A stretch of 58,649 bases of DNA from Candidatus Omnitrophota bacterium (GTDB lineage: Bacteria; Omnitrophota; Gorgyraeia; Zapsychrales; Zapsychraceae). Where the stretch lies: the NCBI GenBank assembly GCA_015232535.1, contig JADFZM010000003.1, positions 1-58,649 of the forward strand, in the 5' to 3' direction. The notes beneath the pieces are model-generated. The model was given only the letters and a program-made list of their open reading frames with translations, was not told the origin of the DNA and did no database searches. Positions 1 through 58,649 of the stretch are shown piece by piece (within the stretch, counting starts at the first letter, position 1; every line of letters starts with the position of its first letter). Made by a program: the position numbers and the translations under genes.

Positions 1-3000
1 TACAAAGTTTTTATATTTTTCAAGAAGATTCTTCCTGCGGACAAGGATAATCCTTCGGCTAAACTTGAAAGTGCGGTGAAAGTGACAGAGGGGGCAGAGA
101 CTTTATTCGAAGGGAGGCCGGCGGGAGTAGAGATGGTCGATACTTTGATATACGGTCATCCAGCTCTTTGGCCGGTGTATAAAGAAGTTGCTAATAATCC
201 TATTAAAGGGAAGAAAGTCCTAGAGGGAATAGCTGAAGCGCTTCAATCTGAAAATTATTATGAGGTAATAGCGGAGATAAAGGAAGAGCTTGCTACTGAT
301 GGGGTAAGCGACAGAGTTGATGAAGAATATTTCTCGATACCGGAAAGGGAGAGCGGAACTCTAGGGATTCAGGATAAGGCGATGTTAAGCAGGTCTCATT
401 TATCAGATGAGGAGTTAGCTGTTCTAAGGGGTTCGGATGAAGAAGCCGGATTTATCTACAAGCGTGAATATGAAGAATCTCGTGTCAGGGGTCAGATAAC
501 AAATATCCAGGAAGCCCTGCGAATAACTAACTATGATGGGCGTAAGAGGCCGGAAGATCAAAATATCAAGGAAGCATTGATTGCTCTTGATGTTGATAAA
601 GTGATTGCGTGGATTGAAAGTCCTGAAGGAAAATTCAGCGGGCAAGAGGTCCACATATTGGATGGGGTTGGCCCGGACGCTAAGGCGATAGGGAGGCTTG
701 ACCGGAAAGTTGCCGAATATTATGGATTTCCCCACGAGACTGCGAACATTGTTATGATCGCGCCGGATGGAAATGTAATTGTACAGTTGCGTAATACCGA
801 TAGATTTGATGACCATCTGGGAATGTATGGCGGGCATTTGAAGGTGGGGTCAACTCATTATGAAGGAGCGCTGGCAGAAACATTGGAAGAGACGGGATTG
901 GCCTATCTGGATTTTAATCCATCCTTTGTGGGATATGAACATTACGCTATTGATGGAGATAATAATAAGGAACGCCGGTCATGGTTTGTTAAAATTTTGA
1001 CTCAAAGGGAGTATGCCAATATTGAAATAGAAGTTAACAGGCTAAAGACTTTGAAAGACCGATATACCCGCCTGGAGGTAAAAGAAATACTCTCCGAAGC
1101 AAGGGAGAGGGTCAAAGACGGTAAGAATGAAGTTGTCGGTAAGTATCTTATTCCTTTTGCAAAATTATTAAACGCTAAGAAGAAGACTTATGTCCTGGGG
1201 AAGATAAACGGAGCTATGCCGTATGAAAATAAGCCGGTCCGGTACTTGTATGTTAGGGACGCTTATCAGGGAAGAGTAAAGCGAATTATGGCATATTTTA
1301 CTCCGGATTCTTTGGACAGATTGTTTTCCGATGAAAATAAAGGCGACCTTTTACCTAAACTTGAACAGGCTGTCAATCAAGCACGACGAGTCATTGCCGG
1401 GATCGCCAAAGATTTAATTGATCGTGACGAAAAAGACGGAATAACCGTAGAGGCTGTTCAGAGAGCTTTACATAAAAAAAACACTATCGTTTTAAATTCA
1501 GGAATAGGGCGGGATCAGCAATCTTTAGCGGAGGAAGTTGTTCAAAAAGCGAATGAGGCAAGGGGTAGAAGCAAAAAGGGAATTGTAATAACTCTTATCG
1601 GAGGCGGTGGTACGGGAAAGAGTACAACGGCACAAGCTATTGCCAAGAAATTAAACGTTACAAATGTTTATGTTGGGCTCATTTATAGAGCTTTGGCTTT
1701 AGAAATACTAAAGGAAGGTTTCACTGCTGATGCTGATACTGTTGCAAAAGCTTTGGAAGAAACACCTCCTGGTTCCTCAAAAACAAGGGCGGCGATTATC
1801 CTAGAAAAGCTTGAGCTTATCTCGGATAATAATTTTAATCCGAGCATAACTTATAACGGTCAAGATATTAATAGTGAAATTGAAGAACGACGAGTCGACC
1901 TTGAAAAGGCAATGAGCGGAACAGCCTGGAGCCAAAATCTACACAAGCAGATAGCCCATTTCTGGCTTAAAACTGTTGAAGCAGAGGTCGCTCAGGGTAA
2001 AGATGTAGTCGTAGATCTGCGCCCTAAACAAGCCGAGTTGATAAAAGACAAGAAATTAACGGTTTATTTAACCGCAGATATTCTTATCCGGGCCGGCCGC
2101 CGGGCTAATGATAATATTGAATCTAAAGGCCTAAATAATACCGAGCAATCTTATGCATCTAGCGTTGTAGTTCCGGAGCAGGCCATATCGGTAGAAGACG
2201 TTTTGGCCCCGTACTATAACAACAAAGCAAGGGTTTATTTTGATGCCGAGCAAGCCAAGGTTGACAAAATGTGGGAAGGGGCTATAGGGTCCCCGCTTGG
2301 GGCATCGGTCGGTGTCCTTAGCCAGGAATTCTATGACTGGGTTCGTATTTCCTCGGGGGAAGGAGACAGGACCACCGGCGAATTATTCGCGAACTTCATT
2401 AAGGACCGCATTCCTGCCGAGTGGATAGAATCTCTTAAGACAGACAGGGATGCTTTCATTGAATTATTTCCCGGGCACATTGAACTAACGGAAGAAGAGA
2501 TTGTTAAAGATTATCCTAAGGCTAGCCTTCATCAAAGAAAGACGGAAATGGCTATCGAACAAATGTATGAGACCAAGAAAGGCCTTCATGCCCGATATAT
2601 TGTGGCCAATATGCCCGGGCGGTCATCCGTTGTTCAGTTGGTCGGGTTCCTTAAATTTATGGGGGTACCACATGATAAGATATTAATTCATCCCGAGCCA
2701 ACAAAAGAAGCAAAGATAGCATGGTATGAAAAGCTACTCGGGAAAGTAATAGACGAGGTAGATTCGATCGTTTTTATCCCGGTATCAAATGCCGATATTA
2801 GTCCTGCCCTGAATCCCAGCCCAGATAAGCAGTCTACGATCTACCCTTCTGAAAGCCAGCTTAAGATGAGGGTTAGTAATCAAACGGGCTTTGGAGGGAT
2901 TATCAAAGGAAAAGATGGCAAGAAAATTCTCGTGTTGAACATCCGTTCGATCTTTGGCGAAGCAACTAGTGATTTTGTAGATTGGCTTACACCGAAAGCC

Positions 3001-6000
3001 AAAAGTAGCGGACGGCTAAGAAAGATTGTTTTTTACGGTACGGCGGGGGCATTTAATTCTCCGGAGCCCGGGTCTATAAAGAAAAGAGTTGGTGATATTA
3101 TCGTTCCGGATCAAACTTCTATGGAGTTCTTTGACAGTGTTTTCGGCGGTCTTTTGTCATATGAAATAAGTTTTGATAATGCCGCGCTTCTAGCCAGACC
3201 ATTGACCCTGCATAAGATTGATATAGGTGATAAAGCTTTAAATGACTTTAATCAAGCTGAAAAAGAAATAATTGTTCAAGCTGTTAATGGGGTTTCGCTT
3301 ATTAAGCCGGAAAATGGCAAGCCGGTTTTAAATGCTACGACTGCTAATGTTGGAAACGAAACGGCCCGAATGGTTAGGCAGTTGCGCGGAAGCGGAGCTG
3401 AAGCGGCTGACATGGAGTTGTATTATTTGGTGAAAGGCATAGGTGAGATTAATGCTTCTCGCTCTTCAGGGGAAAAGATTCAGTTTTCAACAATGCTAAG
3501 AGTTGCAGATATTCCCGGAACTAAACAAGGAACGGATGCCAATATAAAAAGCCGAGATGATAGAGTTGTTAAGAAGATAAGAGAAATTATTAGTGACCAG
3601 GTTTTTACCTCCATAAGGGAGTTTTTTGATCAAGCCATGGTTCCCGATGGCATTCCAGTCTTGCCTTCGGGGAGTGACAGGGCTATGTTGGCTGATAAAA
3701 GAGATTTAAAAGAATACCAGGAAGTGGTTGCAAAGTATTCTAACAAGAAGAATAGCAAGGGGGAATTAGTCCCTAAAGATGTTAGCGGGGCTAGAATAAA
3801 GTTTGATGAAAAGACTTTAAAATCTTTGCCCTTTAGGGGAAACACGGTTGTTGTATGGTTTGATGAAGAAACAAATCAAAAATTTGTCGAGATAAAAAAG
3901 AGAATACAGGAAAAATTATCGCAACTGACTCGCCAGGACCATAAGCGCTATGGCGAAATGATGAATAAAGTGGCTTTTGTTGATGATAGATCATTTCATC
4001 TTACGCTTTTTGACTTAATCAATCCTGATGATTTTAGTAGCTTATCAGCTGAACAAAGAGAAATAAAAATTAAGGCAGTAAACGAGCAAATACGACAAGT
4101 CTTTGCTTCCTTGAGAGCAGAGGGTAGGCTGGCTCCTATTCAAGTAGGGGTTGACGCTTTAGGTTCATTTATGCCTTTTACGTATTCTTTACTAATTGCT
4201 TTGAGTACTCCCAGAAAACAAGAAGACCTAGATCGTATTAATTATATTAGAGAAGAAATAAGTAAAGCAACAGGGATTGTTTTGGCTAAGCCTTTTGTTG
4301 CCCATAGTACTTTGGGGTATATCGTTAATCCTATGAATGTTGAAGAGTATGCGGCGTACAAGAAAATTGTTGATGAGGTTATGGATGATCCGCAATTTAA
4401 GTTTGAGATTGAATTGGGTAACTTGGAATTACGTTTATTTGAGACCATGGATGATTATGGCGAAAATTCCGTTGATAAAGTTGATTTAGCGATGTATTCG
4501 GTCTTAGATATTAATGATCCCAAGAGTTCTGAAATTGCTTTGGTTGGAGGAAAGGCTGCCAGCTTAAAAGAGCTTGGCTCTATACCTGGGATCAGAGTTC
4601 CCGCCGGATTCAATGTTACAACGAAAGTTTACGCGGATTATCTGGAGCAGATCGGCGCTGCTCCCTATATAGCTAAACTTGAAGATTTCTCTGAACAGTG
4701 GAAAGTTCTTCCAGAGAATGAACCAGGCCGTGAAGCTCTGACAATTGAAATGCGCAGGTTGTCGGAAGAAATTCAAGCTATTATTTTAAGCGGAGAGATC
4801 CCCGAGGAGGTACTAGGTTTAATCTTGGAGTCATATAGAAGTTTGGATAAAGAAGGGCTGCCGGCCCTGGTTGCCGTTCGCTCTTCTGCAACAGCAGAAG
4901 ATATGCCAGGGGCATCATTTGCTGGGCAGTACAAGACTTATTTGAATCAGCAGGGTGATGCAAAGGTCATTGAGGCGATTAAGAAAGTTTGGGCTTCAAC
5001 CTACAATATGAACGCTATTGAATATCGTAACAAGCAGAATATGCAGCATAGTAAGAATAAAATGTGTGCGCTGATACTTGAAATGGTAAATCCCCAATCG
5101 GCGGGGACAGCGTTTTCTGTTGATACAGAAACAGGGGCGCCTTTTATAAGCCTTAATAATACATATGGTCTGGGCGAGGCAGAGGTTTCTGGCATCGTCA
5201 CGTCAGACACTTGGGTTATTGACCCGCAAACTAACACTATTCTCAAACGACGACTAGGCAAGAAAAACGTAAAGATTGTTTATGATCCCGAGAAAAGAGA
5301 GAATGTCATTTTGGAAAACTCTGAACGAGAAAGTAACAGATTCGCGATCAGTACTATTACGGCAAAAGAAATAGCAAGGCAGGTTAGAATTATCCATGAA
5401 CATTATACGAAGAAATCAGTAGATATTAAGTATATTGACGCAGAGTATGTCGTAACAAGCACGGGCGACGTTGTTTTTACACAAACTAGGCCGGAAACGG
5501 TCTGGGGAAAAGGCCGGGCAAAATTGTTAGCTGTAGATAAAGAGAAGGCAAGAAGTTATCCAGTTATTCTGGAGGGAGGGGTTACAGGCTCTTCGGGAGT
5601 GGCGACAGGAGTTATTAGAATTGTTCGTTCAGTAGAAGATGCCGCTAAATTTATTGAGCCAGGGGACATCATGGTCGCGCCCAATACAACCAATGTTTGG
5701 GAACACTCAATGGGGCTGGCCGGGGGCATCATTACAGAAGTTGGAGGAAATGGTAATCACACTGCTGTTGTGTCAAGAGAACAGGGAAAGCCGGCTATAG
5801 TCGGGAACTCTAATGCTATTGAAATACTAAAAGAATATGATAATCAGGAAGTCACTATAGATGCTACCTTAAAGAGAGTTTATTTAGGGGCGGTTCCTTC
5901 GGAATATTTCTATAGCCCTGATAAAATTCAGCCGCTTTATGGTGGCCTATACAGTGAAACCTTGGAGGATGGTTGGGAGGCCGCGAGTAAAACCGGGCAA

Positions 6001-8094: not shown

Positions 8095-8182
8095 CTTTTA
8101 TACTTATTCTTCTTGGCACGAAGGCTTTTTCTAATATATACTTTCTTTATAATTTTAATTCCTATAACTATTTATATTAGAG

Positions 8183-8296
8183 ATGACATTTCACTTCCAA
8201 AATTTTAAATCCAACAAACTAAACAGGGGCTTAGGCTTTCTAGCCGCCTTCTTTCTAGTACTTGAATCCATTCTTTCTCCCGTTGCTTCTTATGCG
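8183..8296 (+). other. Sec-type signal peptide (or signal anchor) of ORF2
   Basis: In MTFHFQNFKSNKLNRGLGFLAAFFLVLESILSPVASYA|QS there is a basic n-region, a hydrophobic core and an A-x-A-like SYA site. ORF3 carries the same SYAQ junction. Confidence 0.7.
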
Positions 8297-11200
8297 CAAA
8301 GTGTTTATGATCTTCCGGCTGTAGGCGCTCAGGTTAATTTAAGCCAAAGCTTCGCCCCGGCGGTATTAAAAGGGATCAGGATCGACCCCAAAGAGCCGCT
8401 AAACTTTGATTTCATCGTCGATGCCGGCGATTCCGGATTAAAAGACGCGGAGTTAAAGAAAGAATCCGAAAAACTTATTAAATATTTCCTCGCCTCATTG
8501 ACCGTCCCTAAAGACGAGCTTTGGGTCAATTTATCCCCTTATGAAAAAGACCGCATAATCCCCGATTCGCTTTCCCAAACCGATATGGGACGCGACCTTC
8601 TCGCCCAGGATTATATCTTAAAGCAATTAACCGCGGCTTTGGTTTATCCGGAGGATGAACTGGGGGCAAAATTTTGGGAAGAGGTTTATTCTAAAGTTAA
8701 AACAAAATACGGCGCTAAAGACCTGCCGGTCAATACCTTGTCTAAGGTATGGATAATCCCGGATAAAGCGACTATATACGAGAAGAACAACACTGCTTAT
8801 ATCGTTGATTCCCATCTAAAGGTAATGCTTGAGGAGGATTATGTAGCCATGGATAAACAGAAAGCCATGGCGGAATCCCGCGATTCCTCGCGGGACAGTG
8901 ATTTACAAAGGACGAACGGGGAAATAAACAATATTCTGCGTTCGATCATAATCCCGGCAATTGAAAAAGAAGTTAATACCGGAAAGAATTTTGCTAATTT
9001 AAGGCAAGTTGTTAATTCTCTTATTTTGGCAACCTGGTATAAAACCAATTTAAAAGAAAGTTTACTTGGAAAAGTTTACGTCGATAAGAATAAAATATTT
9101 GGCATTGTTACCGCAGATGAGAATTTTAAAGAGAAAATATACAACCGTTATTTAGAAGCTTTAGAGGCCGGAGCAAGGAATTATATCAGAGAAGATTACG
9201 ATCCCAAGACTCGGCAGCTTGTTCCGCGCAAATATTTTGTTGGGGGATTAAACTTAGAAGGAATCGGATATCGCTCCTCTTCTGCGGACAATGAAAAAAT
9301 TAATCGTTTAAGCCCTGGGCCTGTATCAGAAATCAATCTGACTTTAAGAACGGATAGAAATATGCTTTCGGGGATCGAGAAGAAAGCCCCCGCATTAAGC
9401 CGGTTTAATGACCTTAAGATTGTTTCTTGGCAAAATGGAGCAATGATTGCCGAAGGTTATATTGATGATCCCAACGAAAAGATTTTGGTAAAATTACTGA
9501 CTGACGATTCTTTGAAAAATAAAAGAGAGTTTGCGGTTTATGAAGAATTACTTGCCCATGATTCTTCTTTAAGTTTTCTTGAATTATTTCCTTCATATGA
9601 AGGTCAGGCAGTTCTTGAATCTTCTGATTTAAATCTTCCTTTGTTTGCGGGTAAAATCGGCCTTAGTGAAGGAACAAAATATTTTGTTGTCAGAAAAGCA
9701 CAAGGGGTAAATATCAGAGAAAGAATCGTTGAATTAAAAGAAAAACTTCAAGGCGCTCATTCATTGGAAGCAGATGAACATGTTATCGGAGATTTATATT
9801 CGATTATAGATGCAATTAAAAGGCTTCATGCTAGAGGAATAATCCTAAAAAATCTAAGGGCTGATAATATATTAATTGATCCCCGAAAGAATTCGATTAC
9901 GATAGACGTAGTTTCATCTCTTTCCATCGCAGATGCCCATAATTCCGAAATAGATATTTATGGCGGGCAAAGAAAAACCTACCAACAGGGAAATAAATTG
10001 CTTTATTATGGAAAAGCCGATATAGAAAGTTTCGATGAAATAGCGTTATTGTACTCGGAAGGTTTATTAAGCTCAAAGTCTTCTTTAATATCGAGCTTGT
10101 CAAGCCTAAGGTTATCAGCGGCCGAGTTCTTTTATAAAACCAGCGACCCTTATGAATTATCCGAGGTAGTTCCATCAATAGGGGCTGATGAGATATTGCT
10201 TTTGTTGGCTAATAAAAGAAATAATATCGGTGTATGGAATCAATCCCGAAAGATAAGAGAATTAGGGGCAGAAAAAGGTGGAGAAGCGGTATTAGAGCTA
10301 AGAAAATTGTTAAATCCTTTAAAAACCCAGGAACCTCGCTTACGTTCGGCGGCCCTTGATGGTTTGATGGCGACAAATTCTCCATTGTCCGTTAGGGCAA
10401 TTGCCACCGCATTGAAGGATCCCGACCGTTTTGTTAAAAGATCGGCAGCCAGTTATTTGGGGAATTTTCCCAGAAGTAAAGTAGCGGTAAAGGCCTTGAT
10501 CAAGGCATTAGCGGACCCAGACAGCGCGGTTTTTGAGAATGCTCTTGATTCCATAAGTAAGATTGGAGACGAAGATACTATTGTTGAATTGAATATTCTA
10601 CGTTCGGGAGAGCCTAAGATAATGACGTTTTCAAGATTTGATGATCATGGAGGGATGATCAGATATACTAAAAAACCAGTTTACACAGGCTACAACGCCC
10701 AAAAATTGACTTATCAAGGAGAGGAGACCATTGAAAATCCCAGGGTCTCTCAATATTCTAAAACAATCGCAGATCTGCAGAGGAAATTAAAGGAGGAAAG
10801 ATTAAAAAGGAAAATCAATTTAGAAGAAGTTAAAGATAAAAGAATCCCAGCATTCTTCAAATGGCTTGAAGAAAAAGGCCTCGCAGATTATTTTGTTATA
10901 GTCGGCGGAGGCGTCCGCGATCTTTATACGGGAGAGATGCTTAACGATCTAGATATTGGAATAAAAGTAGAATTAACGGATGAAGAAAGGCTGCAGTTTA
11001 TAACTCCCATTAATCAGGCTACTGAAAGGGTTTGGCAATATTCAATGGATAAGCTAAAGTTATTGGCTGATGCCTTAGGTGAGGATGTAAATGTGTTCTT
11101 GCCGCCCCTTTTTGGGAAGAAATCAGTCTTCTGGAGCGATGGCAAGAACCCCACTATAGAAATACAATATACCGGCCCTATAAGACAGGTTGATTCAGAA

Positions 11201-13705
11201 GACGGCACTCCTATTTATATTAAAAGATCCTTATTTGATGAGAATGATCGTTCAGTCTATCTTACTAGGACCAATGCGGCGCTATTATCGACCGGGATTG
11301 ACTCTAGAGGTAACATTTATGGGAGGGTTAGCGCTTTTGATGATTTTGATAACGGTATCGCTCAATTAGCCGGAGATGGTGATAACTTTGATATAGGGGC
11401 CATAATGCGTTTTTTACGGCTCAAATATCAGTTCGGCTTGAAAATTACTCAGGATGATTATTCCTTGGTTCAAGAACAAATAAAGAGGTATTTATCGGAC
11501 GATTCGGAAATCCCCAGCGTTATAATTTATTTTGTTTTGAGCCGGCAGATAGAAAGGCTTCTTGCAACAGCCAAAGACAAAGATGCCGCGCATCTGGAAT
11601 TGGAAAGGCTAGGCATTTATAAATTATTGGACTTGGGAAAACACCGCCAAATAAAGCCGGAAGAAATTGAAGCTTGGGGATTGAATATTGCCCCGGCCTT
11701 AGAAGCGGCAATTATGGAAATTTCTGATATAAGAAAAAGTAGGCAGCGAGAAATATTAAAGTCCAGCTTATTGAATATATTAAATGTGCAAAGTAAGCCG
11801 ATAACGAAGAGGAGGCTTTTTGAGATTCTAAGGATTAATCCAGACTTTGCGAAAGTAAATTTCAGGGAAGTTCTTCAAACTATTGCTTATTATTCTATTT
11901 TAGCCAATCACATCTATTTACTAAGAAAACCATCTCTCTCTGACCTTGCGGAAGAAAGAGCTAATGCTGTGCCGGGATCGGGCGTGACAAATTCAAGATT
12001 ACGTTTTAGCATGGATGATGTCACAAATGTTATTATAAATCCTGAAGTATTAGAATATGATTTTGGTATAAGCTTCGATGAGTTGACTGATGAGGAGATT
12101 TTATTATTGGCTAAAACACCTTATCCCGCTATCGGGCAGACGCTAGGTTTGACTATAGCCGAAAATACCAAGTTAAACCTAAAGCAGTTATTGGAATTAT
12201 TGGAGATCAGGGATAATAGCCTAACAGAAATTGTCTTAGAGAATATTGTATCCAGGTTTAAAGGAGCTACTAATTTAAAAGATACGCTGCAGAGTAGGAT
12301 GCTGCTTATAAGAAATGAGCTAAGAGCTGCCCGTCTTTTGCGTTATGAATGGCTTAAGACTAATACGGATATAGTAGATAAATATAGCCTATCTTTTGTT
12401 GCTAATAATGAATATGCAGGGCTTAGAAATAAGGCCAAGAAATTTAAGGATGAAATTATTCTATATGCCAAAGCCATAGCCAAGCTGGACGGAAAAGACA
12501 CAGTTGTTCACGGTTCAGCGATGAATGTGGTTTTTAATCCTCTAGGTAATTTCCTGCCTCATTCATCAGCGCGATTAAATAGAAATATTGGCATGATAAA
12601 AATAGAGCAATTGCTGGATAAGGAATCAGAAATGGCACCTGTGTGGTCAAGATTAGACTCGGATGAATTATATTTATCCGAGAGAGAGGTCACTGGCGGG
12701 GATTCAGGAATAAATCAGGTCAGAGTCAAGAAATATATAAGGTATAGGGAAAGGAAGACCGGAAAGCTATACTATTCGACCCAATATGAAAAGGCCCAGA
12801 TGTTCTCGGTGATTTCCAGTTATTTGTTCTTTAGGTTGATCGGGCTACCAATCCGCCCGACATTTGTTTTAAGAAAAGAAGACGGAGAGCCGATTCTTTT
12901 AAGAGAGATAATTCACAACAGTTCGCCTTTGGACGAATACAAGATAGTTTTCGGCGAAGATGCTATACAATTTGCTTCCGTATGGAGGAGGCTGTTAAAG
13001 GGGGCGCTATTGGCGGACAATGTTCTGGGCCATCGCGGCCGGGGCCAAGACACTATTTCAATTATCACCAACGCGGATGGCTCGAAAAAACCCTTTTTTG
13101 ATGAAATGAGAAGTGCATTCGGGATTCCCGATGTTATTGATGATAAAATCCCTATTAGCGAGCAGGTAAATTATAATTTCTCCGATAACGTTGTTTCGCT
13201 GCCGGACCGGCAGGTAACGGCAGGAGTATCCGGGCTTTTCCCCGATGAATTATCAGCAAATCCTTATCAATCTAAGGCCCGGCATGCTGACCTGGCCTGG
13301 ATGGCAGGATATTTAAAGCAGGTAACCCCTGAACAATTGCGGGGAATTTTGGATTACGCGAATAAAGCTGTCCCGAATAATGGATTGGATGTTGAGGCGA
13401 TTTTTATGGAATGGCAAAAGGCTTTAGATAAAGTCCGGGAGATATATCCGGATAAAGCGCAATTATCCAACCGAAATTCTCAAGAGACCCCCGGCGGTAT
13501 CGACCTGAATCCGGATAATATAACGATGGATATTAAATCCGATGGGTTAAAGCCGCGCTTTGAGTTCTCCCCCGATATCCTTGAAGCTTATCCAATAAGG
13601 GGGTTTGAGCCGGTCATTATCAATATCTCTCCCATAAACAGCCTGCCTTTATACTTAGGGATCATTAAGGCAGAAGGCGAGATGAGTATAAGCCGCCTTA
13701 ATTGA
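8183..13705 (+). CDS. Giant secreted or membrane-anchored multidomain protein (1840 aa). It has a signal peptide, a conserved N-module, a pseudokinase-like domain, HEAT repeats, a CCA/polyA-polymerase-type nucleotidyltransferase, ~680 aa of unassigned sequence, and the conserved 70-aa C-terminal module.
   Basis: This is one long uninterrupted ORF whose ATG follows an 88-nt AT-rich spacer after ORF1. Domain motifs are listed separately. Confidence 0.92.
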   Translation: MTFHFQNFKSNKLNRGLGFLAAFFLVLESILSPVASYAQSVYDLPAVGAQVNLSQSFAPAVLKGIRIDPKEPLNFDFIVDAGDSGLKDAELKKESEKLIKYFLASLTVPKDELWVNLSPYEKDRIIPDSLSQTDMGRDLLAQDYILKQLTAALVYPEDELGAKFWEEVYSKVKTKYGAKDLPVNTLSKVWIIPDKATIYEKNNTAYIVDSHLKVMLEEDYVAMDKQKAMAESRDSSRDSDLQRTNGEINNILRSIIIPAIEKEVNTGKNFANLRQVVNSLILATWYKTNLKESLLGKVYVDKNKIFGIVTADENFKEKIYNRYLEALEAGARNYIREDYDPKTRQLVPRKYFVGGLNLEGIGYRSSSADNEKINRLSPGPVSEINLTLRTDRNMLSGIEKKAPALSRFNDLKIVSWQNGAMIAEGYIDDPNEKILVKLLTDDSLKNKREFAVYEELLAHDSSLSFLELFPSYEGQAVLESSDLNLPLFAGKIGLSEGTKYFVVRKAQGVNIRERIVELKEKLQGAHSLEADEHVIGDLYSIIDAIKRLHARGIILKNLRADNILIDPRKNSITIDVVSSLSIADAHNSEIDIYGGQRKTYQQGNKLLYYGKADIESFDEIALLYSEGLLSSKSSLISSLSSLRLSAAEFFYKTSDPYELSEVVPSIGADEILLLLANKRNNIGVWNQSRKIRELGAEKGGEAVLELRKLLNPLKTQEPRLRSAALDGLMATNSPLSVRAIATALKDPDRFVKRSAASYLGNFPRSKVAVKALIKALADPDSAVFENALDSISKIGDEDTIVELNILRSGEPKIMTFSRFDDHGGMIRYTKKPVYTGYNAQKLTYQGEETIENPRVSQYSKTIADLQRKLKEERLKRKINLEEVKDKRIPAFFKWLEEKGLADYFVIVGGGVRDLYTGEMLNDLDIGIKVELTDEERLQFITPINQATERVWQYSMDKLKLLADALGEDVNVFLPPLFGKKSVFWSDGKNPTIEIQYTGPIRQVDSEDGTPIYIKRSLFDENDRSVYLTRTNAALLSTGIDSRGNIYGRVSAFDDFDNGIAQLAGDGDNFDIGAIMRFLRLKYQFGLKITQDDYSLVQEQIKRYLSDDSEIPSVIIYFVLSRQIERLLATAKDKDAAHLELERLGIYKLLDLGKHRQIKPEEIEAWGLNIAPALEAAIMEISDIRKSRQREILKSSLLNILNVQSKPITKRRLFEILRINPDFAKVNFREVLQTIAYYSILANHIYLLRKPSLSDLAEERANAVPGSGVTNSRLRFSMDDVTNVIINPEVLEYDFGISFDELTDEEILLLAKTPYPAIGQTLGLTIAENTKLNLKQLLELLEIRDNSLTEIVLENIVSRFKGATNLKDTLQSRMLLIRNELRAARLLRYEWLKTNTDIVDKYSLSFVANNEYAGLRNKAKKFKDEIILYAKAIAKLDGKDTVVHGSAMNVVFNPLGNFLPHSSARLNRNIGMIKIEQLLDKESEMAPVWSRLDSDELYLSEREVTGGDSGINQVRVKKYIRYRERKTGKLYYSTQYEKAQMFSVISSYLFFRLIGLPIRPTFVLRKEDGEPILLREIIHNSSPLDEYKIVFGEDAIQFASVWRRLLKGALLADNVLGHRGRGQDTISIITNADGSKKPFFDEMRSAFGIPDVIDDKIPISEQVNYNFSDNVVSLPDRQVTAGVSGLFPDELSANPYQSKARHADLAWMAGYLKQVTPEQLRGILDYANKAVPNNGLDVEAIFMEWQKALDKVREIYPDKAQLSNRNSQETPGGIDLNPDNITMDIKSDGLKPRFEFSPDILEAYPIRGFEPVIINISPINSLPLYLGIIKAEGEMSISRLN
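8297..9247 (+). other. Conserved ~320-aa N-terminal module (copy 1), shared with ORF3
   Basis: Long runs are identical with ORF3: KLIKYFLASLTVP, WVNLSPYEKDR, MGRDLLAQDYILKQLT, LVYPEDELG, SHLKVMLEED, IEKEVN.GKNFA.LRQ, NLKESLLG, PRKYF.GG. Confidence 0.85.
9420..10060 (+). other. Protein-kinase-like domain of ORF2, probably a pseudokinase
   Basis: ILVKLL matches a VAIK-like Lys and FAVYEEL matches the alpha-C Glu. The catalytic-loop region LHARGIILKNLRADNILID (9826..9880) aligns to HxxGixHRDLKpxNILxD, with HRD replaced by LKN (catalytic Asp to Asn). TIDVV sits at the DFG position. Confidence 0.55.
10250..10595 (+). other. HEAT / PBS-lyase-type repeats in ORF2
   Basis: The segment LRSAALDGLMATNSPLSVRAIATALKDPDRFVKRSAASYLGNFPRSKVAVKALIKALADPDSAVFENALDSISKIGDEDTI shows the repeated (A/L)L.DPD..VR..A pattern. 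Confidence 0.7.
10840..11460 (+). other. tRNA nucleotidyltransferase / poly(A) polymerase family head domain (PolyA_pol-like) in ORF2
   Basis: YFVIVGGGVRDLYTGEMLNDLDIGIKV (10889..10966) matches the GGxVRDxLLGxxxxDxD signature. The downstream IMRFLRLKYQFGLKI matches the RxxRFxxxxgF helix motif. Confidence 0.8.
13493..13702 (+). other. Conserved 70-aa C-terminal module (copy 2), shared with ORF1
   Basis: The sequence is GGIDLNPDNITMDIKSDGLKPRFEFSPDILEAYPIRGFEPVIINISPINSLPLYLGIIKAEGEMSISRLN-stop. Confidence 0.8.
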
Positions 13706-41463: not shown

Positions 41464-41473
41464 GAAAAGAGCG

Positions 41474-55845: not shown

Positions 55846-58649
55846 ATGATCAGGTTTATAGAAAACAAAAAACAAACAAAATATCACCGCTTAATTTGCG
55901 CTGTGGTGCTTATCGCCTTTGTCTTTACTGGCATAATCCCGCCTTCTTACGCGCAAATAGCCGCACAGACTGTATTGAACCTGCCTGTGCCGGGGGCGAT
56001 GGTGCCGGTGAGCTCCGGCTACATACCTACTCTAATAAAGGGGATCACTATACATCCCGAAAACCAACTTCTCTTTGATTTTATTGTGGATACCGGAGAC
56101 AGCCAGTTGCAGGGGAAAGAGCTGACCGATGAAGCGGTCAAACTTATCAAATATTTTCTTGCTTCTTTGACCGTTCCGGAAGATGAAATGTGGGTCAACC
56201 TGTCCCCTTATGAGAAAGACCGTGTTGTTCCCGATGGATTCGGAGTAACCGAAATGGGCCGCGACCTTTTGGCGCAGGATTACATTTTAAAACAGCTTAC
56301 CTCGACGCTTGTTTACCCTGAAGATGAATTAGGCAAAACGTTCTGGGCGCGGGTATACGAAAAGACTCAAAAAGAATTTAATACAACTGATATCCCGATG
56401 AATACCTTTAACAAGATATGGATATTACCGGAAAAAGCGGCTGTTTACGAGCACGGCAACAGCGTTTTTGTCGTTGAAAGCCATTTGAAGGTCATGCTCG
56501 AGGAAGACTTTGTGGCTTTAAATAAGAATTTAGGTATAAAAAGTTTCGGCCTTGAGGGCGTTGAAAAAGAATCCGCTGAAAAATACAGTGCGGTATCAAG
56601 CAAAATTATCAAAGAAATATTAATTCCTGAGATTGAGAAAGAAGTTAATGAAGGTAAAAACTTTGCGCAGTTGAGGCAAATTTATAATTCGGTCATCTTA
56701 GCCAGCTGGTATAAAGAGAATTTAAAGGAAAGCTTGTTGGGACAGGTTTATGTCGGGAAGAATAAGACATTCGGCGTGGATGTTGAGGATAAAGAAATCA
56801 AACAAAGGATTTATAATCAGTATTTAGAGGCTTTTAAGAAAGGCGTTTACAACTATATTAAGGAAGATTATGACTCTCAAACAAAGACTATTATCCCCAG
56901 GAAATATTTTTCCGGCGGTTCAAAGATGGGTAATGTAAAAGTTGCCAAAAGAAGCGGTAATGACGTGGCAATGTTGGCCTCGCGCAAAAATGGCGATGTT
57001 TTAGATTTTAGAACAAATTTAGCCGATGCGGGAGAGGGCGCTTTACCTGGTGCAATAGCAGAAGCCGATCGCTTTGCAGAAGAGGCCAGCTCTGGGCTTT
57101 CCTTAATAGCCGTTGAGCCGGGGACCGATGAGGCTATTTTCGGCCAAACCACAATAGAATTAAATGGACGGCAAGTTTATACCAGCGAATTAAAGAGTAT
57201 ACTTGAAGCGATGGGCGATGATTTGCTGACCCAAAATGTTGCGCAAGCCGCCGGCCCGCAAGGCCAGGCATCAGAGGATGTCAGAATTCTGAGGTTCAAT
57301 GTGCTAGAACGCTTGGTTGATGCAAGAATGACACAGGCAGTTACTAGGCCCTTGAGCGGTGAAAATCCTCTCAATTATGTTGAATTCAGCAAAGAGCTAT
57401 TAGCCTCATTAGTTGAATACCTAAAACCAAGTGAAACCGGAGCACGCCTTGTCATAAATGGTGCTGAGATGTATTTAGAATGGAAACAAGCATATAAAGA
57501 AGCTGACAGTTCTTTTATTATTAATAAAGCCAGATTTTGGGTTGATTTTCGTAGAAAAGTAGCAGATGAAGAGGAACGCCTAATGAGGGATTTTCATCGG
57601 GGGTTTCTGGATTATAGGCTGGTTGAGTTATCCCGTTTCCTGGAAAATAAAGTTTTAAATGTAGAGGTAACTTCCTTCACAATGCGAAGTGGAAGTATGG
57701 GATTAGAATGGGAGGAAGATGAGGGACACTTGAAATTTTCTATTAGGCAAGGAAAACTAGAAATAATATTCAATGATAAGGACGTTGTTTATACTAGTCT
57801 CATCTCATACAAGAGCCCAGTTCAAGTCCTTAGGGAAATCTTGGATGTCAGCAATTACCAAAACAAAAGAAATTTAGAAATAAAGTTAACTGACCAAACC
57901 GTGAAAATAATCACAGATAAAATAAGGGAATTAGAATCCCGTGAGGCCGCGATAAAAGATATGGCCGATAATGTTAAAAAAGGCGGGGACATCGTTGGAT
58001 TGCACTCTTGGGCGGACGAAGATACCCTGGCCGGTTTCACCGCCGCAAAGAAAGCCGGTCTTAATCCTGAGTTAAAAGGCCCACAGCAGACAAATCGGGT
58101 GCGTTCGCAAAATCCCCAAGCAATATTATTACAGACCGTAAAAAAGGGCGGATTATCCGAAGCTGTCAGAGCCGGGGCGGATGTTTTAATCTCCTCTGAA
58201 ATGCTCTTGAAAGGAGAAATAGCTCAAGCCCGCGAAGACGCAAAAGAAAAGAATATCCTGATAATTGCCGGTATTAACACACAGCCCAAAGAAGGGGAGA
58301 TTTCTGTTCAAAGTCAAATCGCCATGGCCTTCAAAAATGGAGCCGACGGCGTAAAATTCAAACCCGCCGGTAGAGGGCTGGAATACAAGGTCCTTGATTG
58401 GATTGAAATTGTCCGTGAAAGATATCCAACAATGATTATTATGGTAGCCGGAGGCGTGACCAATCAAAACCGTAATCAATTCGGGCCCGATGTCATCGCC
58501 GGAATTGGAGCGGATTCGCTTCGTGAAATTAATTCGATAGCTAATTGGGCAGTTAAAAAAACAACCACCGACACCTCCATGCTGGCCACTTACAAACTGC
58601 CCAAAGGGACGATGGAATTCGGCGGAGAAGTTGTAGGGATCCTTGCTTT
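55846..58649 (+). CDS. Third giant-family ORF, 3'-partial (at least 934 codons, no stop in window): signal peptide + conserved N-module + unassigned region + aldolase-like TIM-barrel segment
   Basis: This ORF is absent from the supplied track. I translated the frame starting at ATG 55846 (RBS AAGGAG 8 nt upstream) codon by codon to nt 58649 and found no stop. The N-terminus is MIRFIENKKQTKYHRLICAVVLIAFVFTGIIPPSYA|QI, and it then parallels ORF2. Confidence 0.9.
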   Translation, partial: MIRFIENKKQTKYHRLICAVVLIAFVFTGIIPPSYAQIAAQTVLNLPVPGAMVPVSSGYIPTLIKGITIHPENQLLFDFIVDTGDSQLQGKELTDEAVKLIKYFLASLTVPEDEMWVNLSPYEKDRVVPDGFGVTEMGRDLLAQDYILKQLTSTLVYPEDELGKTFWARVYEKTQKEFNTTDIPMNTFNKIWILPEKAAVYEHGNSVFVVESHLKVMLEEDFVALNKNLGIKSFGLEGVEKESAEKYSAVSSKIIKEILIPEIEKEVNEGKNFAQLRQIYNSVILASWYKENLKESLLGQVYVGKNKTFGVDVEDKEIKQRIYNQYLEAFKKGVYNYIKEDYDSQTKTIIPRKYFSGGSKMGNVKVAKRSGNDVAMLASRKNGDVLDFRTNLADAGEGALPGAIAEADRFAEEASSGLSLIAVEPGTDEAIFGQTTIELNGRQVYTSELKSILEAMGDDLLTQNVAQAAGPQGQASEDVRILRFNVLERLVDARMTQAVTRPLSGENPLNYVEFSKELLASLVEYLKPSETGARLVINGAEMYLEWKQAYKEADSSFIINKARFWVDFRRKVADEEERLMRDFHRGFLDYRLVELSRFLENKVLNVEVTSFTMRSGSMGLEWEEDEGHLKFSIRQGKLEIIFNDKDVVYTSLISYKSPVQVLREILDVSNYQNKRNLEIKLTDQTVKIITDKIRELESREAAIKDMADNVKKGGDIVGLHSWADEDTLAGFTAAKKAGLNPELKGPQQTNRVRSQNPQAILLQTVKKGGLSEAVRAGADVLISSEMLLKGEIAQAREDAKEKNILIIAGINTQPKEGEISVQSQIAMAFKNGADGVKFKPAGRGLEYKVLDWIEIVRERYPTMIIMVAGGVTNQNRNQFGPDVIAGIGADSLREINSIANWAVKKTTTDTSMLATYKLPKGTMEFGGEVVGILA
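55954..56919 (+). other. Conserved ~320-aa N-terminal module (copy 2), shared with ORF2
   Basis: The module reads LIKGITIHPENQLLFDFIVDTGD...KLIKYFLASLTVPEDEMWVNLSPYEKDRVVPD...MGRDLLAQDYILKQLTSTLVYPEDELG...SHLKVMLEEDFVAL...IEKEVNEGKNFAQLRQ...NLKESLLGQVYV...PRKYFSGG. Confidence 0.85.
57960..58560 (+). other. Possible KDPG-aldolase-like / phosphate-binding TIM-barrel segment in ORF3
   Basis: ILIIAGINTQ...AMAFKNGADGVKFKPAG...RERYPTMIIMVAGGVTNQN resembles the GA..vKfFPa ... ptGGv..(d)N pattern of Eda-type aldolases. This is a weak by-eye call. Confidence 0.3.

What the first reader, a model, noticed from the sequence alone, without database searches (positions are those of the whole stretch)
1..13705. 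A family of giant proteins with constant ends and variable enzymatic middles (three members in this window)
ORF1 (1..8094, 5'-open) and ORF2 (8183..13705) are tandem, and ORF3 (55846..>58649) lies 42 kb downstream. ORF2 and ORF3 share a Sec-type signal peptide with the same SYAQ junction plus a ~320-aa N-module. ORF1 and ORF2 share a 70-aa C-terminal module ending S-x-L-N-stop. ORF1 is cut at its 5' end and ORF3 at its 3' end, so all three may carry both caps. Between the caps the proteins are unrelated mosaics of nucleotide/RNA-acting domains. Conserved trafficking ends with swappable payloads are the logic of polymorphic toxin/effector families. I recognise neither cap as a known sorting or delivery domain: they are not LPXTG, PEP-CTERM, T9SS CTD, RTX/T1SS, autotransporter, Rhs/YD or CDI. 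Several payload domains need ATP or PEP (CMP-kinase-like, dikinase, nucleotidyltransferase) and would be useless in the extracellular milieu. That suggests either delivery into another cell or an unusual compartment.
Basis: partly seen in the sequence, partly recalled or inferred. Interest (0 to 1): 0.9.

Follow-up and report, generated by a model that had tools for sequence, protein, structure and literature searches.

The report
Capped modular exported proteins of Omnitrophota
The three large genes belong to a very large, undescribed protein family of the tiny, host-dependent Omnitrophota bacteria, in which an export signal and two conserved end-domains frame interchangeable, almost cysteine-free enzymes of the kind normally found inside cells, most likely an exported effector arsenal.

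Summary
ORF2 and ORF3 share a signal peptide and a ~320-aa N-domain (51% identity, E 3e-122). ORF1 and ORF2 share a ~78-aa C-terminal domain, weak pairwise (E 0.001) but real: a profile finds 5,608 cluster representatives, almost always within 10 residues of the C-terminus.

Named hits are nearly all Candidatus Omnitrophota. In an independent sample, 58 of 71 complete N-cap genes end in the C-cap. Minimal members are N-cap plus C-cap only. Caps co-evolve (Mantel r 0.82), and caps ~90% identical carry unrelated payloads such as hexokinase, PGI, dikinase-like, NUDIX, kinases, HEAT and DnaJ. Neither cap matches Pfam, NCBIfam or PDB.

Three new findings:
- The family is 18-24-fold depleted in cysteine.
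- A D-x-A-M linker motif is 12-50-fold enriched at module boundaries.
- Members often sit in head-to-tail tandem arrays.

Best reading: Sec-exported modular effectors of a predatory or parasitic nanobacterium. Export is well supported. Delivery into another cell and proteolytic processing are inferred. The family resembles the published Omnitrophota giant proteins in domain content, but it is smaller, has no internal membrane helices, and I found no description of it.

The parts
1..8094 (+). ORF1, a family member cut at the 5' end by the contig end (2697 codons). It has several payload modules and a C-cap.
   Evidence: The library holds the identical 2697-aa partial protein P0126, so the contig itself starts here.
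373..387 (+). D-x-A-M linker motif (DKAML, ORF1 aa 125)
733..1002 (+). NUDIX-like domain (ORF1 aa 245-334). The EExG core of the Nudix box is kept.
   Evidence: E 1.9e-4, 21.9 bits against a cut-off of 21.1; sequence read
1588..2136 (+). Cytidylate-kinase-like P-loop kinase (ORF1 aa 530-712). The P-loop GGGGTGKST is intact.
   Evidence: sequence
3010..3432 (+). Weak, sub-threshold match to the nucleoside phosphorylase superfamily (PNP_UDP_1)
   Evidence: E 0.0011, 18.9 bits against a cut-off of 25.1
3628..3690 (+). D-x-A-M doublet (DQAMV at aa 1210, DRAML at aa 1226). It marks the junction where collinear homology to the single-payload relative P0272 begins.
3799..4410 (+). 2H phosphoesterase / 2'-5' RNA-ligase-like domain (ORF1 aa 1267-1470), sub-threshold
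   Evidence: The same Pfam family (PF08975) is precomputed for homologues P0272 and P0275.
4537..5868 (+). Dikinase-like unit: PPDK_N ATP-grasp (aa 1513-1842) and phospho-His swivel domain (aa 1885-1956). The canonical PEP/pyruvate TIM-barrel domain is absent.
   Evidence: Close homologues lack PF02896.
7099..7113 (+). D-x-A-M motif (DEAML, aa 2367). Its position is conserved in P0272 (DDAMM at 1533) and P0274 (DDAML at 1544).
7858..8091 (+). C-cap of ORF1 (aa 2620-2697): DKASL..GGVDFN..GFVPVIIDIIP..LGLEP..VSSLN-stop
8113..8142 (+). Promoter-like site (TTGGCA-18-TATACT) in the 88-bp AT-rich spacer between ORF1 and ORF2
   Evidence: This is a consensus match only.
8183..13705 (+). ORF2, a complete family member (1840 aa, no cysteine)
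8183..8296 (+). ORF2 signal peptide (aa 1-38), with predicted cleavage SYA|Q
   Evidence: Sequence; hydrophobic segment; family statistics
8297..9247 (+). ORF2 N-cap (aa 39-355, ending PRKYFVGG)
9356..9370 (+). Variant linker motif DRNML, 37 aa after the N-cap
10403..10588 (+). HEAT repeats (ORF2 aa 741-802)
10898..10966 (+). GGGVRD...DLD motif of the poly(A)-polymerase/CCA-adding head domain (sub-threshold)
   Evidence: E 0.021; sequence
13451..13702 (+). C-cap of ORF2 (aa 1757-1840): DKAQL..GGIDLN..GFEPVIINISP..LGI..ISRLN-stop
55846..58649 (+). ORF3, a family member cut at the 3' end (934 codons seen). An SD-like AAGGAGA lies 7 nt upstream of the ATG.
55846..55953 (+). ORF3 signal peptide (aa 1-36, SYA|Q). 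It holds ORF3's only cysteine.
55954..56919 (+). ORF3 N-cap (aa 37-358, ending PRKYFSGG)
56962..56976 (+). D-x-A-M motif (DVAML), 15 aa after the N-cap
58570..58584 (+). Variant motif DTSML (ORF3 aa 909)

Best explanation
ORF1, ORF2 and ORF3 are paralogues of a phylum-wide Omnitrophota family with a fixed frame.

The frame, in order:
- a long (median 36 aa) signal peptide cleavable by signal peptidase I (...S-Y-A|Q);
- a ~320-330-aa alpha/beta N-cap, 50-60% identical across the phylum, with no detectable relative;
- a hydrophilic linker rich in D-x-A-M motifs;
- one to several interchangeable payload modules;
- a ~75-aa C-cap at the very C-terminus.

Shown:
- the architecture and its size and distribution;
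- co-occurrence and co-evolution of the two caps;
- payload exchange between nearly identical caps, at junctions that coincide with D-x-A-M motifs;
- near-absence of cysteine;
- tandem arrays.

Inferred from this, with good support:
- The proteins are threaded out of the cytoplasm by Sec.
- They function outside the producer's cytoplasm. The cysteine level matches the low level of the window's own outer-membrane and periplasmic proteins.

Inferred, with less support:
- The caps are the constant handling part, for passage across or attachment to the outer envelope. They work like a TPS domain or a T9SS C-terminal domain, using machinery encoded elsewhere.
- The payloads keep ATP/NTP-dependent catalytic motifs: a P-loop, a phospho-His swivel domain and a GGxVRD..DxD nucleotidyltransferase head. 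J-domains and HEAT/Ank repeats occur elsewhere in the family. The payloads therefore act where nucleotides and partner proteins exist, that is, in or at an attached host or prey cell.
- The D-x-A-M linkers are processing or recognition sites that release modules.
For: Family and taxon:
- 1,281 N-cap hits from the word-indexed search (3,621 candidates scored); named ones are almost all Candidatus Omnitrophica/Omnitrophota.
- 5,608 C-cap representatives.

- 40 of 146 listed C-cap hits also carry the N-cap, and these include nearly all long complete ones.
- 58 of 71 complete N-cap ORFs end in the C-cap. At least 5 more are split by a stop or frameshift, with the C-cap on the next piece.
- No cap is ever internal.
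- P0073 (438 aa) and P0098 (500 aa) are N-cap plus C-cap only.

Payload diversity: PGI, hexokinase, PGM, aldose epimerase, GHMP kinase, DnaJ, Pkinase, HATPase_c, methyltransferase, radical SAM, deaminase, HEAT and Ank.

Cassette behaviour:
- Mantel r 0.82 between N-cap and C-cap identities, 0 of 2000 permutations as high.
- N-caps 87-94% identical sit on payloads that share only 43-82 aligned residues in five of six such pairs.
- ORF1 aa 1220-2682 is collinear with P0272 aa 373-1848, which is the whole stretch between P0272's N-cap and its C-terminus. The junction lies within about 10 aa of D-x-A-M motifs in both proteins.

Export:
- 120 of 134 complete N-termini have an A|Q junction.
- Position -3 is S/A/V/G/T in 107 of 120.
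- The n-region carries a mean net charge of +3.1.
- There is no internal hydrophobic helix.

Cysteine:
- 2 in 5,471 aa of the window trio, against 0.78% in the other 27 window proteins (P about 3e-16).
- 0.043% in 32 homologues.
- Replicated at 0.047% against 1.13% in neighbouring ORFs.

Motif:
- D.AM[LV]: 57 observed against 1.1 expected in payloads, with permuted controls at chance. Replicated at 43 against 1.06.
- D.AM core: 8.1 per 1000 aa just after the N-cap, 0 in the N-cap, and chance level in neighbours.

Lifestyle context from the literature:
- Omnitrophota are ultra-small and host-dependent, and V. archaeovorus preys on archaea (PMC10066038).
- Predator RNA is found in dead prey cells (PMC13153191).
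- Giant Omnitrophota proteins carry the same domain types on predicted extracytoplasmic stretches (10.1101/2023.11.21.568195; 10.64898/2026.06.07.730766).
Against: - There is no experimental localisation, and no secretion or translocation machinery is linked to the family. Across 80 loci no neighbour gene is conserved. The commonest is an ABC ATPase/MacB-like gene in 11 of 80 loci, which is compatible with chance.
- Cap function is inferred from position and conservation only.
- Structure comparison gives nothing significant (best E 0.1, TM about 0.1).
- Cysteine depletion proves an extracytoplasmic or unfolded-transport constraint at most. It does not prove delivery into another cell.
- Only about half of the members carry a D-x-A-M motif in the first 100 aa after the N-cap (31 of 58). 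No protease is associated with it, so processing is conjecture.
- Several payload domain calls in the window are below family thresholds, and catalytic competence is judged from motifs only.
- The TEM report of open cytoplasmic contact between predator and prey (cited in PMC13153191) would make a Sec route unnecessary for transfer.
- The 50%-identity representative library inflates apparent payload diversity.
Confidence: 0.5

Rival explanations
1. Envelope-resident exo-enzymes or coat. The proteins are exported but stay in the producer's periplasm or on its surface. The N-cap and/or C-cap act as anchors or assembly domains. The payloads work on material leaking from lysed or attached cells (nucleotides, sugars, RNA ends), or serve as binding modules. 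They do not enter another cell.
For: - The same export evidence applies: signal peptide and cysteine depletion.
- Natural cap-only proteins (P0073, P0098) would make sense as structural subunits.
- AF2 models the N-cap plus C-cap protein as one fairly compact unit (pTM 0.77).
- The 2026 preprint places metabolic Pfam domains on the periplasmic or extracellular face.
Against: - P-loop kinases, hexokinase, the dikinase ATP-grasp, the nucleotidyltransferase, J-domains and radical SAM need ATP/NTP, Hsp70 or a reducing system. These are not expected outside a cytoplasm (general biochemistry).
- No anchor motif is recognisable: no LPXTG, PEP-CTERM, lipobox or beta-barrel.
Confidence: 0.3
2. Membrane-tethered cytoplasmic enzyme scaffolds. 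The N-terminal hydrophobic segment is an uncleaved anchor, and the enzymes are the cell's own metabolism. Hexokinase and PGI are otherwise patchy in Omnitrophota genomes.
For: - The 2026 preprint reports canonical hexokinase in only 25 of 176 genomes and PGI in 67 of 176.
- The payloads are of housekeeping type.
- The window context is ordinary chromosome.
Against: - The positively charged n-region and the A-x-A-like junction place the bulk of the protein outside.
- An 18-24-fold cysteine depletion is unlike the cytoplasmic neighbours. It resembles the window's TolC/HlyD/AcrB proteins, at 0-0.67%.
- There are dozens of unrelated payloads, and cap-only members exist.
Confidence: 0.1
3. The tandem ORFs are fragments of one giant 'Archaeovorin'-type gene broken by sequencing errors. 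The 'caps' would then be internal repeats of a giant protein.
For: - Domain content overlaps with that of Archaeovorins: HEAT, NUDIX, PPDK_N.
- Tandem head-to-tail arrays are common.
- A few family genes are interrupted by in-frame stops.
Against: - Every unit begins with its own start codon and signal peptide.
- An 88-bp AT-rich spacer with a promoter-like site separates ORF1 from ORF2.
- The C-cap ends at a stop codon within 10 residues in most of the 154 scored proteins.
- No ORF has an internal cap among 95 N-cap ORFs or among the 146 listed C-cap hits.
Confidence: 0.04

Closest known systems
Omnitrophota giant proteins ('Archaeovorins'; West-Roberts et al. 2023 preprint 10.1101/2023.11.21.568195; 2026 preprint 10.64898/2026.06.07.730766)
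   Same: Same phylum. Same unusual mix of HEAT, NUDIX, PPDK_N, hexokinase, PGM, methyltransferase and radical SAM domains on proteins with export signals. Same open question of whether they are cut into pieces.
   Different: This family is 0.4-3.7 kaa, not >10 kaa. It has no internal transmembrane helices. Its terminal caps are defined, whereas the papers say the N-terminal regions lack identifiable domains. No T2SS-like or PilZ neighbours were seen in the window. I found no mention of the caps, the cysteine depletion or the D-x-A-M motif.
MARTX toxins (own knowledge)
   Same: Conserved N- and C-terminal regions frame a variable, recombining set of central effector domains. Inter-domain linkers are cleaved after Leu to release the modules inside the target cell. 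D-x-A-M-L-[small residue] would fit a cut after Leu.
   Different: MARTX toxins have no Sec signal (T1SS), their ends are glycine-rich repeats, and they carry a cysteine protease domain in cis. None of these is present here, and this family is virtually cysteine-free.
Two-partner secretion exoproteins (TpsA: FHA, CdiA) (own knowledge)
   Same: A long signal peptide is followed directly by a conserved ~250-300-aa N-terminal secretion domain. The proteins are very large and cysteine-poor, with variable functional parts. Multiple paralogues occur per genome.
   Different: The N-cap is alpha/beta, not a beta-helix. It does not match the TPS/Haemagg_act profile. No TpsB gene lies adjacent. A conserved C-terminal domain is not a TpsA feature.
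T9SS cargo proteins (own knowledge)
   Same: A Sec signal, arbitrary cargo and a ~70-100-aa conserved C-terminal domain at the very end of the protein. Many paralogous cargos occur per genome.
   Different: T9SS is a Bacteroidota system. The C-cap matches no Por_Secre_tail or TIGR04183/04131 profile. T9SS cargo has no conserved N-domain.
Polymorphic toxin systems (Rhs, CDI and others) (own knowledge)
   Same: Constant trafficking parts with variable payloads exchanged by recombination.
   Different: There the variable part is the C-terminal tip and is followed by an immunity gene. Here the variable part is central, the C-terminus is constant, and no immunity-like gene follows ORF2. The payloads are mostly metabolic enzymes rather than nucleases or pore-formers.
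Secreted hexokinases of microsporidia (own knowledge)
   Same: A host-dependent organism attaches a secretion signal to a glycolytic, ATP-requiring enzyme and sends it to the host.
   Different: The parasite is eukaryotic, the proteins are single enzymes, and there are no caps.

Membership tests
N-cap/C-cap family of Omnitrophota (defined here) | Signal peptide with an A|Q junction, followed by the ~320-aa N-cap | tested here: met
   Met for ORF2 and ORF3. ORF1 cannot be tested because its 5' end is missing; its closest relative P0272 has the N-cap.
N-cap/C-cap family of Omnitrophota (defined here) | ~75-aa C-cap (GGID.N ... PVII.I.P ... LG) at the extreme C-terminus | tested here: met
   ORF1 scores E 3.8e-29 and ORF2 E 3.1e-28 against the profile. 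ORF3's 3' end is missing. The expectation for ORF3 is 82-90%.
N-cap/C-cap family of Omnitrophota (defined here) | Near-absence of cysteine in the mature protein | tested here: met
   1, 0 and 0 cysteines in the mature parts of ORF1, ORF2 and ORF3.
Archaeovorin-type giant proteins | Length above 10,000 aa (genes above 20-30 kb) | tested here: not met
   1840 aa for ORF2 and >2697 aa for ORF1. The family maximum seen is about 3.6-3.7 kaa.
Archaeovorin-type giant proteins | Many internal transmembrane helices | tested here: not met
   No Kyte-Doolittle segment >=1.6 apart from the signal peptide and the C-cap's PVII stretch.
Archaeovorin-type giant proteins | Domain repertoire (HEAT, NUDIX, PPDK_N and others) | tested here: met
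   compared with the list.
Archaeovorin-type giant proteins | T2SS/T4P-like locus upstream and PilZ or sugar ABC genes downstream | tested here: not met
   Downstream of ORF2 lie a DUF134-like ORF, an SBF transporter, CBS, MarR and others. The region upstream of ORF1 is not available.
T9SS cargo | C-terminal domain that matches Por_Secre_tail or TIGR04183/TIGR04131 | tested here: not met
   No Pfam or NCBIfam hit for the C-caps at E<=5.
Two-partner secretion TpsA | TPS (Haemagg_act) beta-helical N-domain and an adjacent TpsB | tested here: not met
   No profile hit. The model is alpha/beta with long helices. No POTRA/ShlB gene occurs in the window.
T1SS/RTX and MARTX | No Sec signal, GGxGxD nonapeptide repeats, and a CPD (for MARTX) | tested here: not met
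   A Sec-type signal is present. There is no HemolysinCabind or CPD hit. The proteins are virtually cysteine-free.
Autotransporter (T5aSS) | C-terminal beta-barrel of at least ~250 aa | tested here: not met
   The C-cap is ~75 aa and there is no Autotransporter profile hit.
PEP-CTERM / LPXTG / GlyGly-CTERM sorting signals | Signature motif, then a transmembrane helix, then a basic tail at the C-terminus | tested here: not met
   The C-cap's hydrophobic stretch is proline-rich and is followed by an acidic tail. There are no profile hits.
Polymorphic toxin systems (Rhs/CDI type) | Variable C-terminal toxin tip with a cognate immunity gene immediately downstream | tested here: not met
   The C-terminus is the conserved part. 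No small partner gene follows ORF1 (88-bp spacer) or ORF2. There are no Rhs/YD or VENN hits.
ClyA-family alpha-pore-forming toxins | Elongated helical bundle with a beta-tongue, and significant structural similarity | tested here: inconclusive
   NheA, MakA/B and SmhA recur at the top of both Foldseek lists, but with E 0.1-3 and TM about 0.1. This is a lead only.

The most novel reading that the evidence does not exclude
The caps define a previously unknown, Omnitrophota-specific export or translocation route. Through it, a nanobacterial predator or parasite injects a recombining toolkit of ATP-dependent metabolic and regulatory enzymes into its prey. These include hexokinase, PGI, PGM, a dikinase, nucleotide and RNA-end enzymes, kinases and J-domains. 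The D-x-A-M linkers, and possibly the invariant GG at both cap boundaries, would be the long-sought cleavage points that turn these proteins, and perhaps the giant 'Archaeovorins', into polyprotein precursors.
Probability: 0.25. Interest if true: 0.9.

Novelty: new variant of a known kind. Interest (0 to 1): 0.72.

Why it matters
- Omnitrophota are widespread, uncultured, ultra-small bacteria thought to live off other cells. How they act on those cells is unknown.
- The published work concentrates on their giant genes. It states that cleavage points and N-terminal domains are unidentified.
- This family offers a tractable handle: thousands of members of manageable size, two sharply defined and very conserved domains that can be used as search profiles, antigens or baits, and a simple linker motif that makes the polyprotein question testable by N-terminomics.
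- If the caps are a delivery frame, the payload catalogue is a direct read-out of what these bacteria do to their hosts.
- Two new domain families of this size, with thousands of members and no Pfam or NCBIfam entry, are also worth curating.

Tried and rejected
- Extending the contig. Exact look-ups of ORF2 and of the SulP gene next to ORF3 found nothing, so the missing caps of ORF1 and ORF3 could not be seen.
- The genome-contig scan was run with a single protein and gave only 3 loci.
An alignment of intact sequences was used instead. No PAE or coordinates are returned, so N-cap/C-cap docking could not be judged.
- Foldseek against PDB for both models and profile searches against PDB sequences found no relative.
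- Pfam and NCBIfam searches on isolated caps at E<=5 gave only noise.
- A search for a conserved neighbour gene in 80 loci found only ABC ATPase/MacB-like genes in 11 loci, integrases, response regulators and similar. I do not claim any association. One recurrent 'family' was an antisense ORF inside the N-cap.
- Recoded stop codons as the cause of the split family genes: rejected, because the interrupting stops are a mix of TAG, TGA and TAA.
- D-x-A-M as an internal ribosome-binding site plus start codon: considered unlikely. The Ala codon varies synonymously, no SD-like consensus precedes the ATG, and positions -1 and +1 are conserved at the protein level.
- Text search for cap peptides in 8.3 million papers returned none. 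The West-Roberts supplementary sequences are not held, so the giants could not be scanned for the motif or the caps.
- No tRNA or Rfam element occurs in the window.


Full report
**1. What is in the window**

All long ORFs lie on the + strand. ORF1 (1..8094) is open at the 5' end, ORF2 (8183..13705) is complete, and ORF3 (55846..>58649) runs off the 3' end.

The genes between them are ordinary chromosomal genes of a diderm bacterium. They include an SBF transporter, MarR regulators, an Aas-like MFS-acyltransferase-ligase, CdsA, histidine kinases, PEPCK, a DEAD helicase, two TolC/HlyD sets with MacB and AcrB, and SulP. There is no tRNA or Rfam element.

The protein library holds a 2697-aa partial protein identical to the ORF1 translation (P0126). 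ORF1 is therefore cut by the contig end, not by the window.

**2. The observation**

N-module:
- ORF2 and ORF3 align over their first 375 residues at 51% identity (E 3e-122).
- This stretch includes a signal peptide that ends SYAQ in both.

C-module:
- The ORF1/ORF2 C-terminal match is weak pairwise (39% over 88 aa, E 0.001) and invisible to tblastn.
- A profile built from these two and five database fragments (A2) was run exhaustively over 1.84 billion representatives.
- It found 5,608 proteins at E<=1e-3 and 1,686 at E<=1e-10.
- The match ends within 10 residues of the C-terminus in most of the 154 proteins scored.
- 35 of 154 end S-x-[LFV]-N, like ORF1 and ORF2.

The middles of the three proteins are unrelated.

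**3. Payloads in the window**

ORF1 carries, in order:
- a NUDIX-like domain;
- a cytidylate-kinase-like P-loop domain (GGGGTGKST intact);
- a weak nucleoside-phosphorylase-like stretch;
- a 2H phosphoesterase-like domain;
- a PEP-synthase-like ATP-grasp and phospho-His swivel domain, without the usual PEP/pyruvate TIM barrel.

ORF2 has significant HEAT repeats only. It also has sub-threshold protein-kinase-like and poly(A)-polymerase/CCA-head matches. The second of these has the GGGVRD...DLD motif readable in the sequence.

ORF3's visible payload has no significant match. 'Nucleotide/RNA-acting' therefore fits ORF1 and is tentative for ORF2.

**4. A phylum-wide family with both caps**

- The N-cap alone finds 1,281 proteins in a word-indexed search. 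Those that carry names are almost all Candidatus Omnitrophica/Omnitrophota.
- Among C-cap hits, nearly every long, N-terminally complete protein starts with a signal peptide and the N-cap.
- In an independent sample of 80 metagenome loci chosen by the N-cap only, 58 of 71 N-cap ORFs with a stop codon in the locus end in the C-cap.
- At least five of the remaining 13 are the same gene split by one in-frame stop or a frameshift, with the C-cap on the next piece.
- No ORF has an internal cap.
- P0073 (438 aa) and P0098 (500 aa) consist of signal peptide, N-cap, a short linker and C-cap, with no payload.
- Complete members range from about 440 to about 3,550 aa.
- Sixteen of the 80 loci hold two to four members, mostly head-to-tail on one strand like ORF1-ORF2. 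L002 repeats the window's layout with different payloads.

**5. Payload exchange**

- Across 32 two-cap proteins, Pfam finds PGI, hexokinase, phosphoglucomutase, aldose epimerase, GHMP kinase, DnaJ, protein kinase, HATPase_c, methyltransferase, radical SAM, a cytidine/dCMP deaminase domain, HEAT and ankyrin repeats.
- N-cap and C-cap identities are tightly correlated across 36 proteins (Mantel r 0.82; 0 of 2000 permutations).
- Proteins whose N-caps are 87-94% identical share only 43-82 aligned payload residues in five of six pairs.
- Only 6 of 630 pairs share 100 or more payload residues. One caveat applies: the library keeps one representative per 50%-identity cluster, which favours dissimilar pairs.
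- ORF1 residues 1220-2682 are collinear at 55% identity with residues 373-1848 of P0272. That protein is signal peptide + N-cap + this payload + C-cap.
- ORF1 is thus a P0272-type protein with at least 1,219 extra residues of other modules on the N-terminal side.

**6. Evidence for export**

- Of 134 N-terminally complete N-cap proteins, 120 have an A|Q junction just before the cap.
- Position -3 is S/A/V/G/T in 107 of the 120.
- The h-region is strongly hydrophobic, and the n-region has a mean net charge of +3.1.
- The median signal length is 36 aa. This is the pattern of signal peptidase I substrates (established knowledge).
- No further hydrophobic helix occurs in the three window proteins.

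The family is also almost free of cysteine:
- The window trio has 2 cysteines in 5,471 residues, one of them inside ORF3's signal peptide. The other 27 window proteins have 0.78% (binomial P about 3e-16).
- 32 homologues have 0.043%.
- The 58 complete proteins of the independent sample have 0.047%, against 1.13% in 410 neighbouring ORFs.
- The window's own TolC, HlyD and AcrB proteins are also cysteine-poor (0-0.67%), and its cytoplasmic enzymes are not.

I take this as good evidence that the proteins work outside the producer's cytoplasm, are transported unfolded, or both.

**7. A linker motif**

D-x-A-M-[LV] occurs 57 times in 67,508 payload residues, against 1.1 +/- 1.0 in shuffles. Four permuted control patterns sit at chance.

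In the independent sample the count is 43 against 1.06, with 2 occurrences in 160,156 residues of neighbouring ORFs.

Density of the core D-x-A-M:

| Region | Observed | Expected | Per 1000 aa |
|---|---|---|---|
| First 100 aa after the N-cap | 47 | 1.2 | 8.1 |
| Rest of the payload | 77 | 6.2 | 1.3 |
| N-cap | 0 | 1.65 | 0 |
| Neighbouring ORFs | 13 | 14.4 | 0.08 |

- Flanks are hydrophilic and not conserved, and motifs often come in pairs.
- Window sites are ORF1 aa 125, 1210, 1226 and 2367, and ORF3 aa 373. Variants occur at ORF2 aa 392 and 1757, ORF1 aa 2620 and ORF3 aa 909.
- The P0272 homology block in ORF1 starts within about 10 residues of such motifs in both proteins.
- The motif at ORF1 aa 2367 is positionally conserved in P0272 and P0274.
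- Codon variation argues for selection at the protein level.

I read the motif as a module-boundary signal, most simply a processing or recognition site. This is inference: no protease is linked to it.

The N-cap always ends ...YFSGG and the C-cap core starts GGID. This is reminiscent of double-glycine processing sites, but it was not tested.

**8. The caps themselves**

- Neither cap matches Pfam or NCBIfam, even at E<=5.
- Neither matches PDB sequences by profile.
- AlphaFold2 gives an alpha/beta N-cap with long helices and two beta-hairpins (pLDDT 72).
- For the natural cap-only protein P0073 it gives a better model (pLDDT 79, pTM 0.77, C-cap pLDDT 65-81).
- Foldseek against PDB finds nothing significant. 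ClyA-family pore-forming toxins recur at the top of both lists at E 0.1-3 and TM about 0.1. That is a lead, not a result.
- No neighbouring gene is conserved across the 80 loci, so any handling machinery is encoded elsewhere.

**9. Interpretation**

The shown facts fit a frame-plus-cargo design. Export is by Sec. The constant N- and C-terminal domains are kept in step with each other. Cargo modules are exchanged at linker boundaries.

The cargo retains ATP/NTP-dependent motifs and includes J-domains, HEAT/Ank repeats and radical SAM. These functions are expected to need a cytoplasm.

Omnitrophota are ultra-small and host-dependent, and one member preys on archaea (PMC10066038). Predator RNA has been detected in dead prey cells (PMC13153191).

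My preferred explanation is an exported effector arsenal that acts at or in the attached cell. Under this explanation the caps are the handling signal or anchor, and D-x-A-M is a release site. Confidence by level:
- the architecture: about 0.95;
- an extracytoplasmic fate: about 0.8;
- delivery into another cell: about 0.4-0.5.

The main rival is retention in the producer's envelope as exo-enzymes or coat (0.3). A cytoplasmic tethered scaffold (0.1) and fragments of a broken giant gene (0.04) fit the data poorly.

**10. Relation to what is known**

The two preprints on Omnitrophota giant proteins describe the same kinds of domains on exported or membrane proteins. They ask whether these are cleaved, and they state that cleavage points are unknown and that N-terminal regions lack identifiable domains.

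I found no description of this cap family, its cysteine depletion or the motif. No paper prints the cap peptides.

Functionally, the closest analogues are MARTX toxins, TpsA/CdiA exoproteins and T9SS cargo. The defining features of each were tested and not met (see the membership table).

I therefore class the family as a new variant of a known kind, namely modular exported effectors with constant handling parts, built on two new domain families.

Noticed in passing
Family-wide; window 1-13705 and 55846-58649: Extreme cysteine depletion. The window trio has 2 Cys in 5,471 aa, and 90 complete homologues have 0.043-0.047%. Neighbouring genes have 0.78-1.13%. The window's TolC, HlyD and AcrB proteins are also cysteine-poor.
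   Followed up: yes
Window nt 373, 3628, 3676, 7099, 56962 (variants at 7858, 9356, 13451, 58570); family-wide: The short linear motif D-x-A-M-[LV] is enriched 12-50-fold in linkers. It is densest in the 100 aa after the N-cap and coincides with a module junction (ORF1 against P0272). It is a candidate processing site. No protease was identified.
   Followed up: partly
N-cap end (window 9224-9247, 56896-56919) and C-cap start (window ~7882, ~13490): An invariant Gly-Gly sits at both cap boundaries: ...PRKYFSGG at the end of the N-cap and GGID at the start of the C-cap core. This is reminiscent of double-glycine (C39 peptidase) sites, and C39 domains are reported on Omnitrophota giants. It was not tested.
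   Followed up: no
L029 13441-13445; L070 13354-13358; L078 12586-12590; L073 1213-1217 and ~4879; L059 ~2190: Several family genes in metagenome contigs are interrupted by a single in-frame stop (a mix of TAG, TGA and TAA) or a frameshift, with the C-cap on the downstream piece. These are pseudogenes or assembly errors rather than recoding.
   Followed up: partly
L008, L012, L014, L016, L029, L046, L047, L063, L067, L079; L002 3-13257; window 1-13705: Head-to-tail tandem arrays of two or three family members on one strand are common. The next signal peptide starts within about 0-1000 nt of the previous C-cap stop, and the reading frames sometimes overlap.
   Followed up: partly
P0273, P0274, L003 9851-13675: A second, divergent N-cap subtype exists, about 30% identical to ORF2's, with signal peptides ending ...GFAQV. 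It is attached to the same dikinase-like payload as ORF1.
   Followed up: no
Window 4537-7098; P0272-P0281: The dikinase-like payload lacks the PEP/pyruvate-binding TIM barrel (PF02896). It carries a conserved ~400-650-aa region of unknown function instead. The layout resembles that of rifampin phosphotransferase-type enzymes. Shorter cysteine-containing relatives (P0279-P0281, ~880-900 aa) have their own N-terminal hydrophobic or lipoprotein-like starts.
   Followed up: no
Window 41450-45646 and 48043-53384: Two tripartite efflux sets (TolC-HlyD-MacB and MarR-TolC-HlyD-AcrB) lie between ORF2 and ORF3. ABC/MacB-like genes occur within 10 kb of family genes in 11 of 80 loci. This is probably chance, given how common ABC ATPases are.
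   Followed up: partly
Window 14058-14363: A small ORF (101 aa, [18 protein letters not shown]...) overlaps the start of the SBF transporter gene. From memory it looks like a DUF134-type DNA-binding protein. It is not an immunity-gene candidate.
   Followed up: no
One search hit names: Some N-cap fragments are deposited under Pacearchaeota, Heimdallarchaeota or Planctomycetales MAG names. These are probably binning errors, so the N-cap may be a handy marker for Omnitrophota contamination in bins.
   Followed up: no
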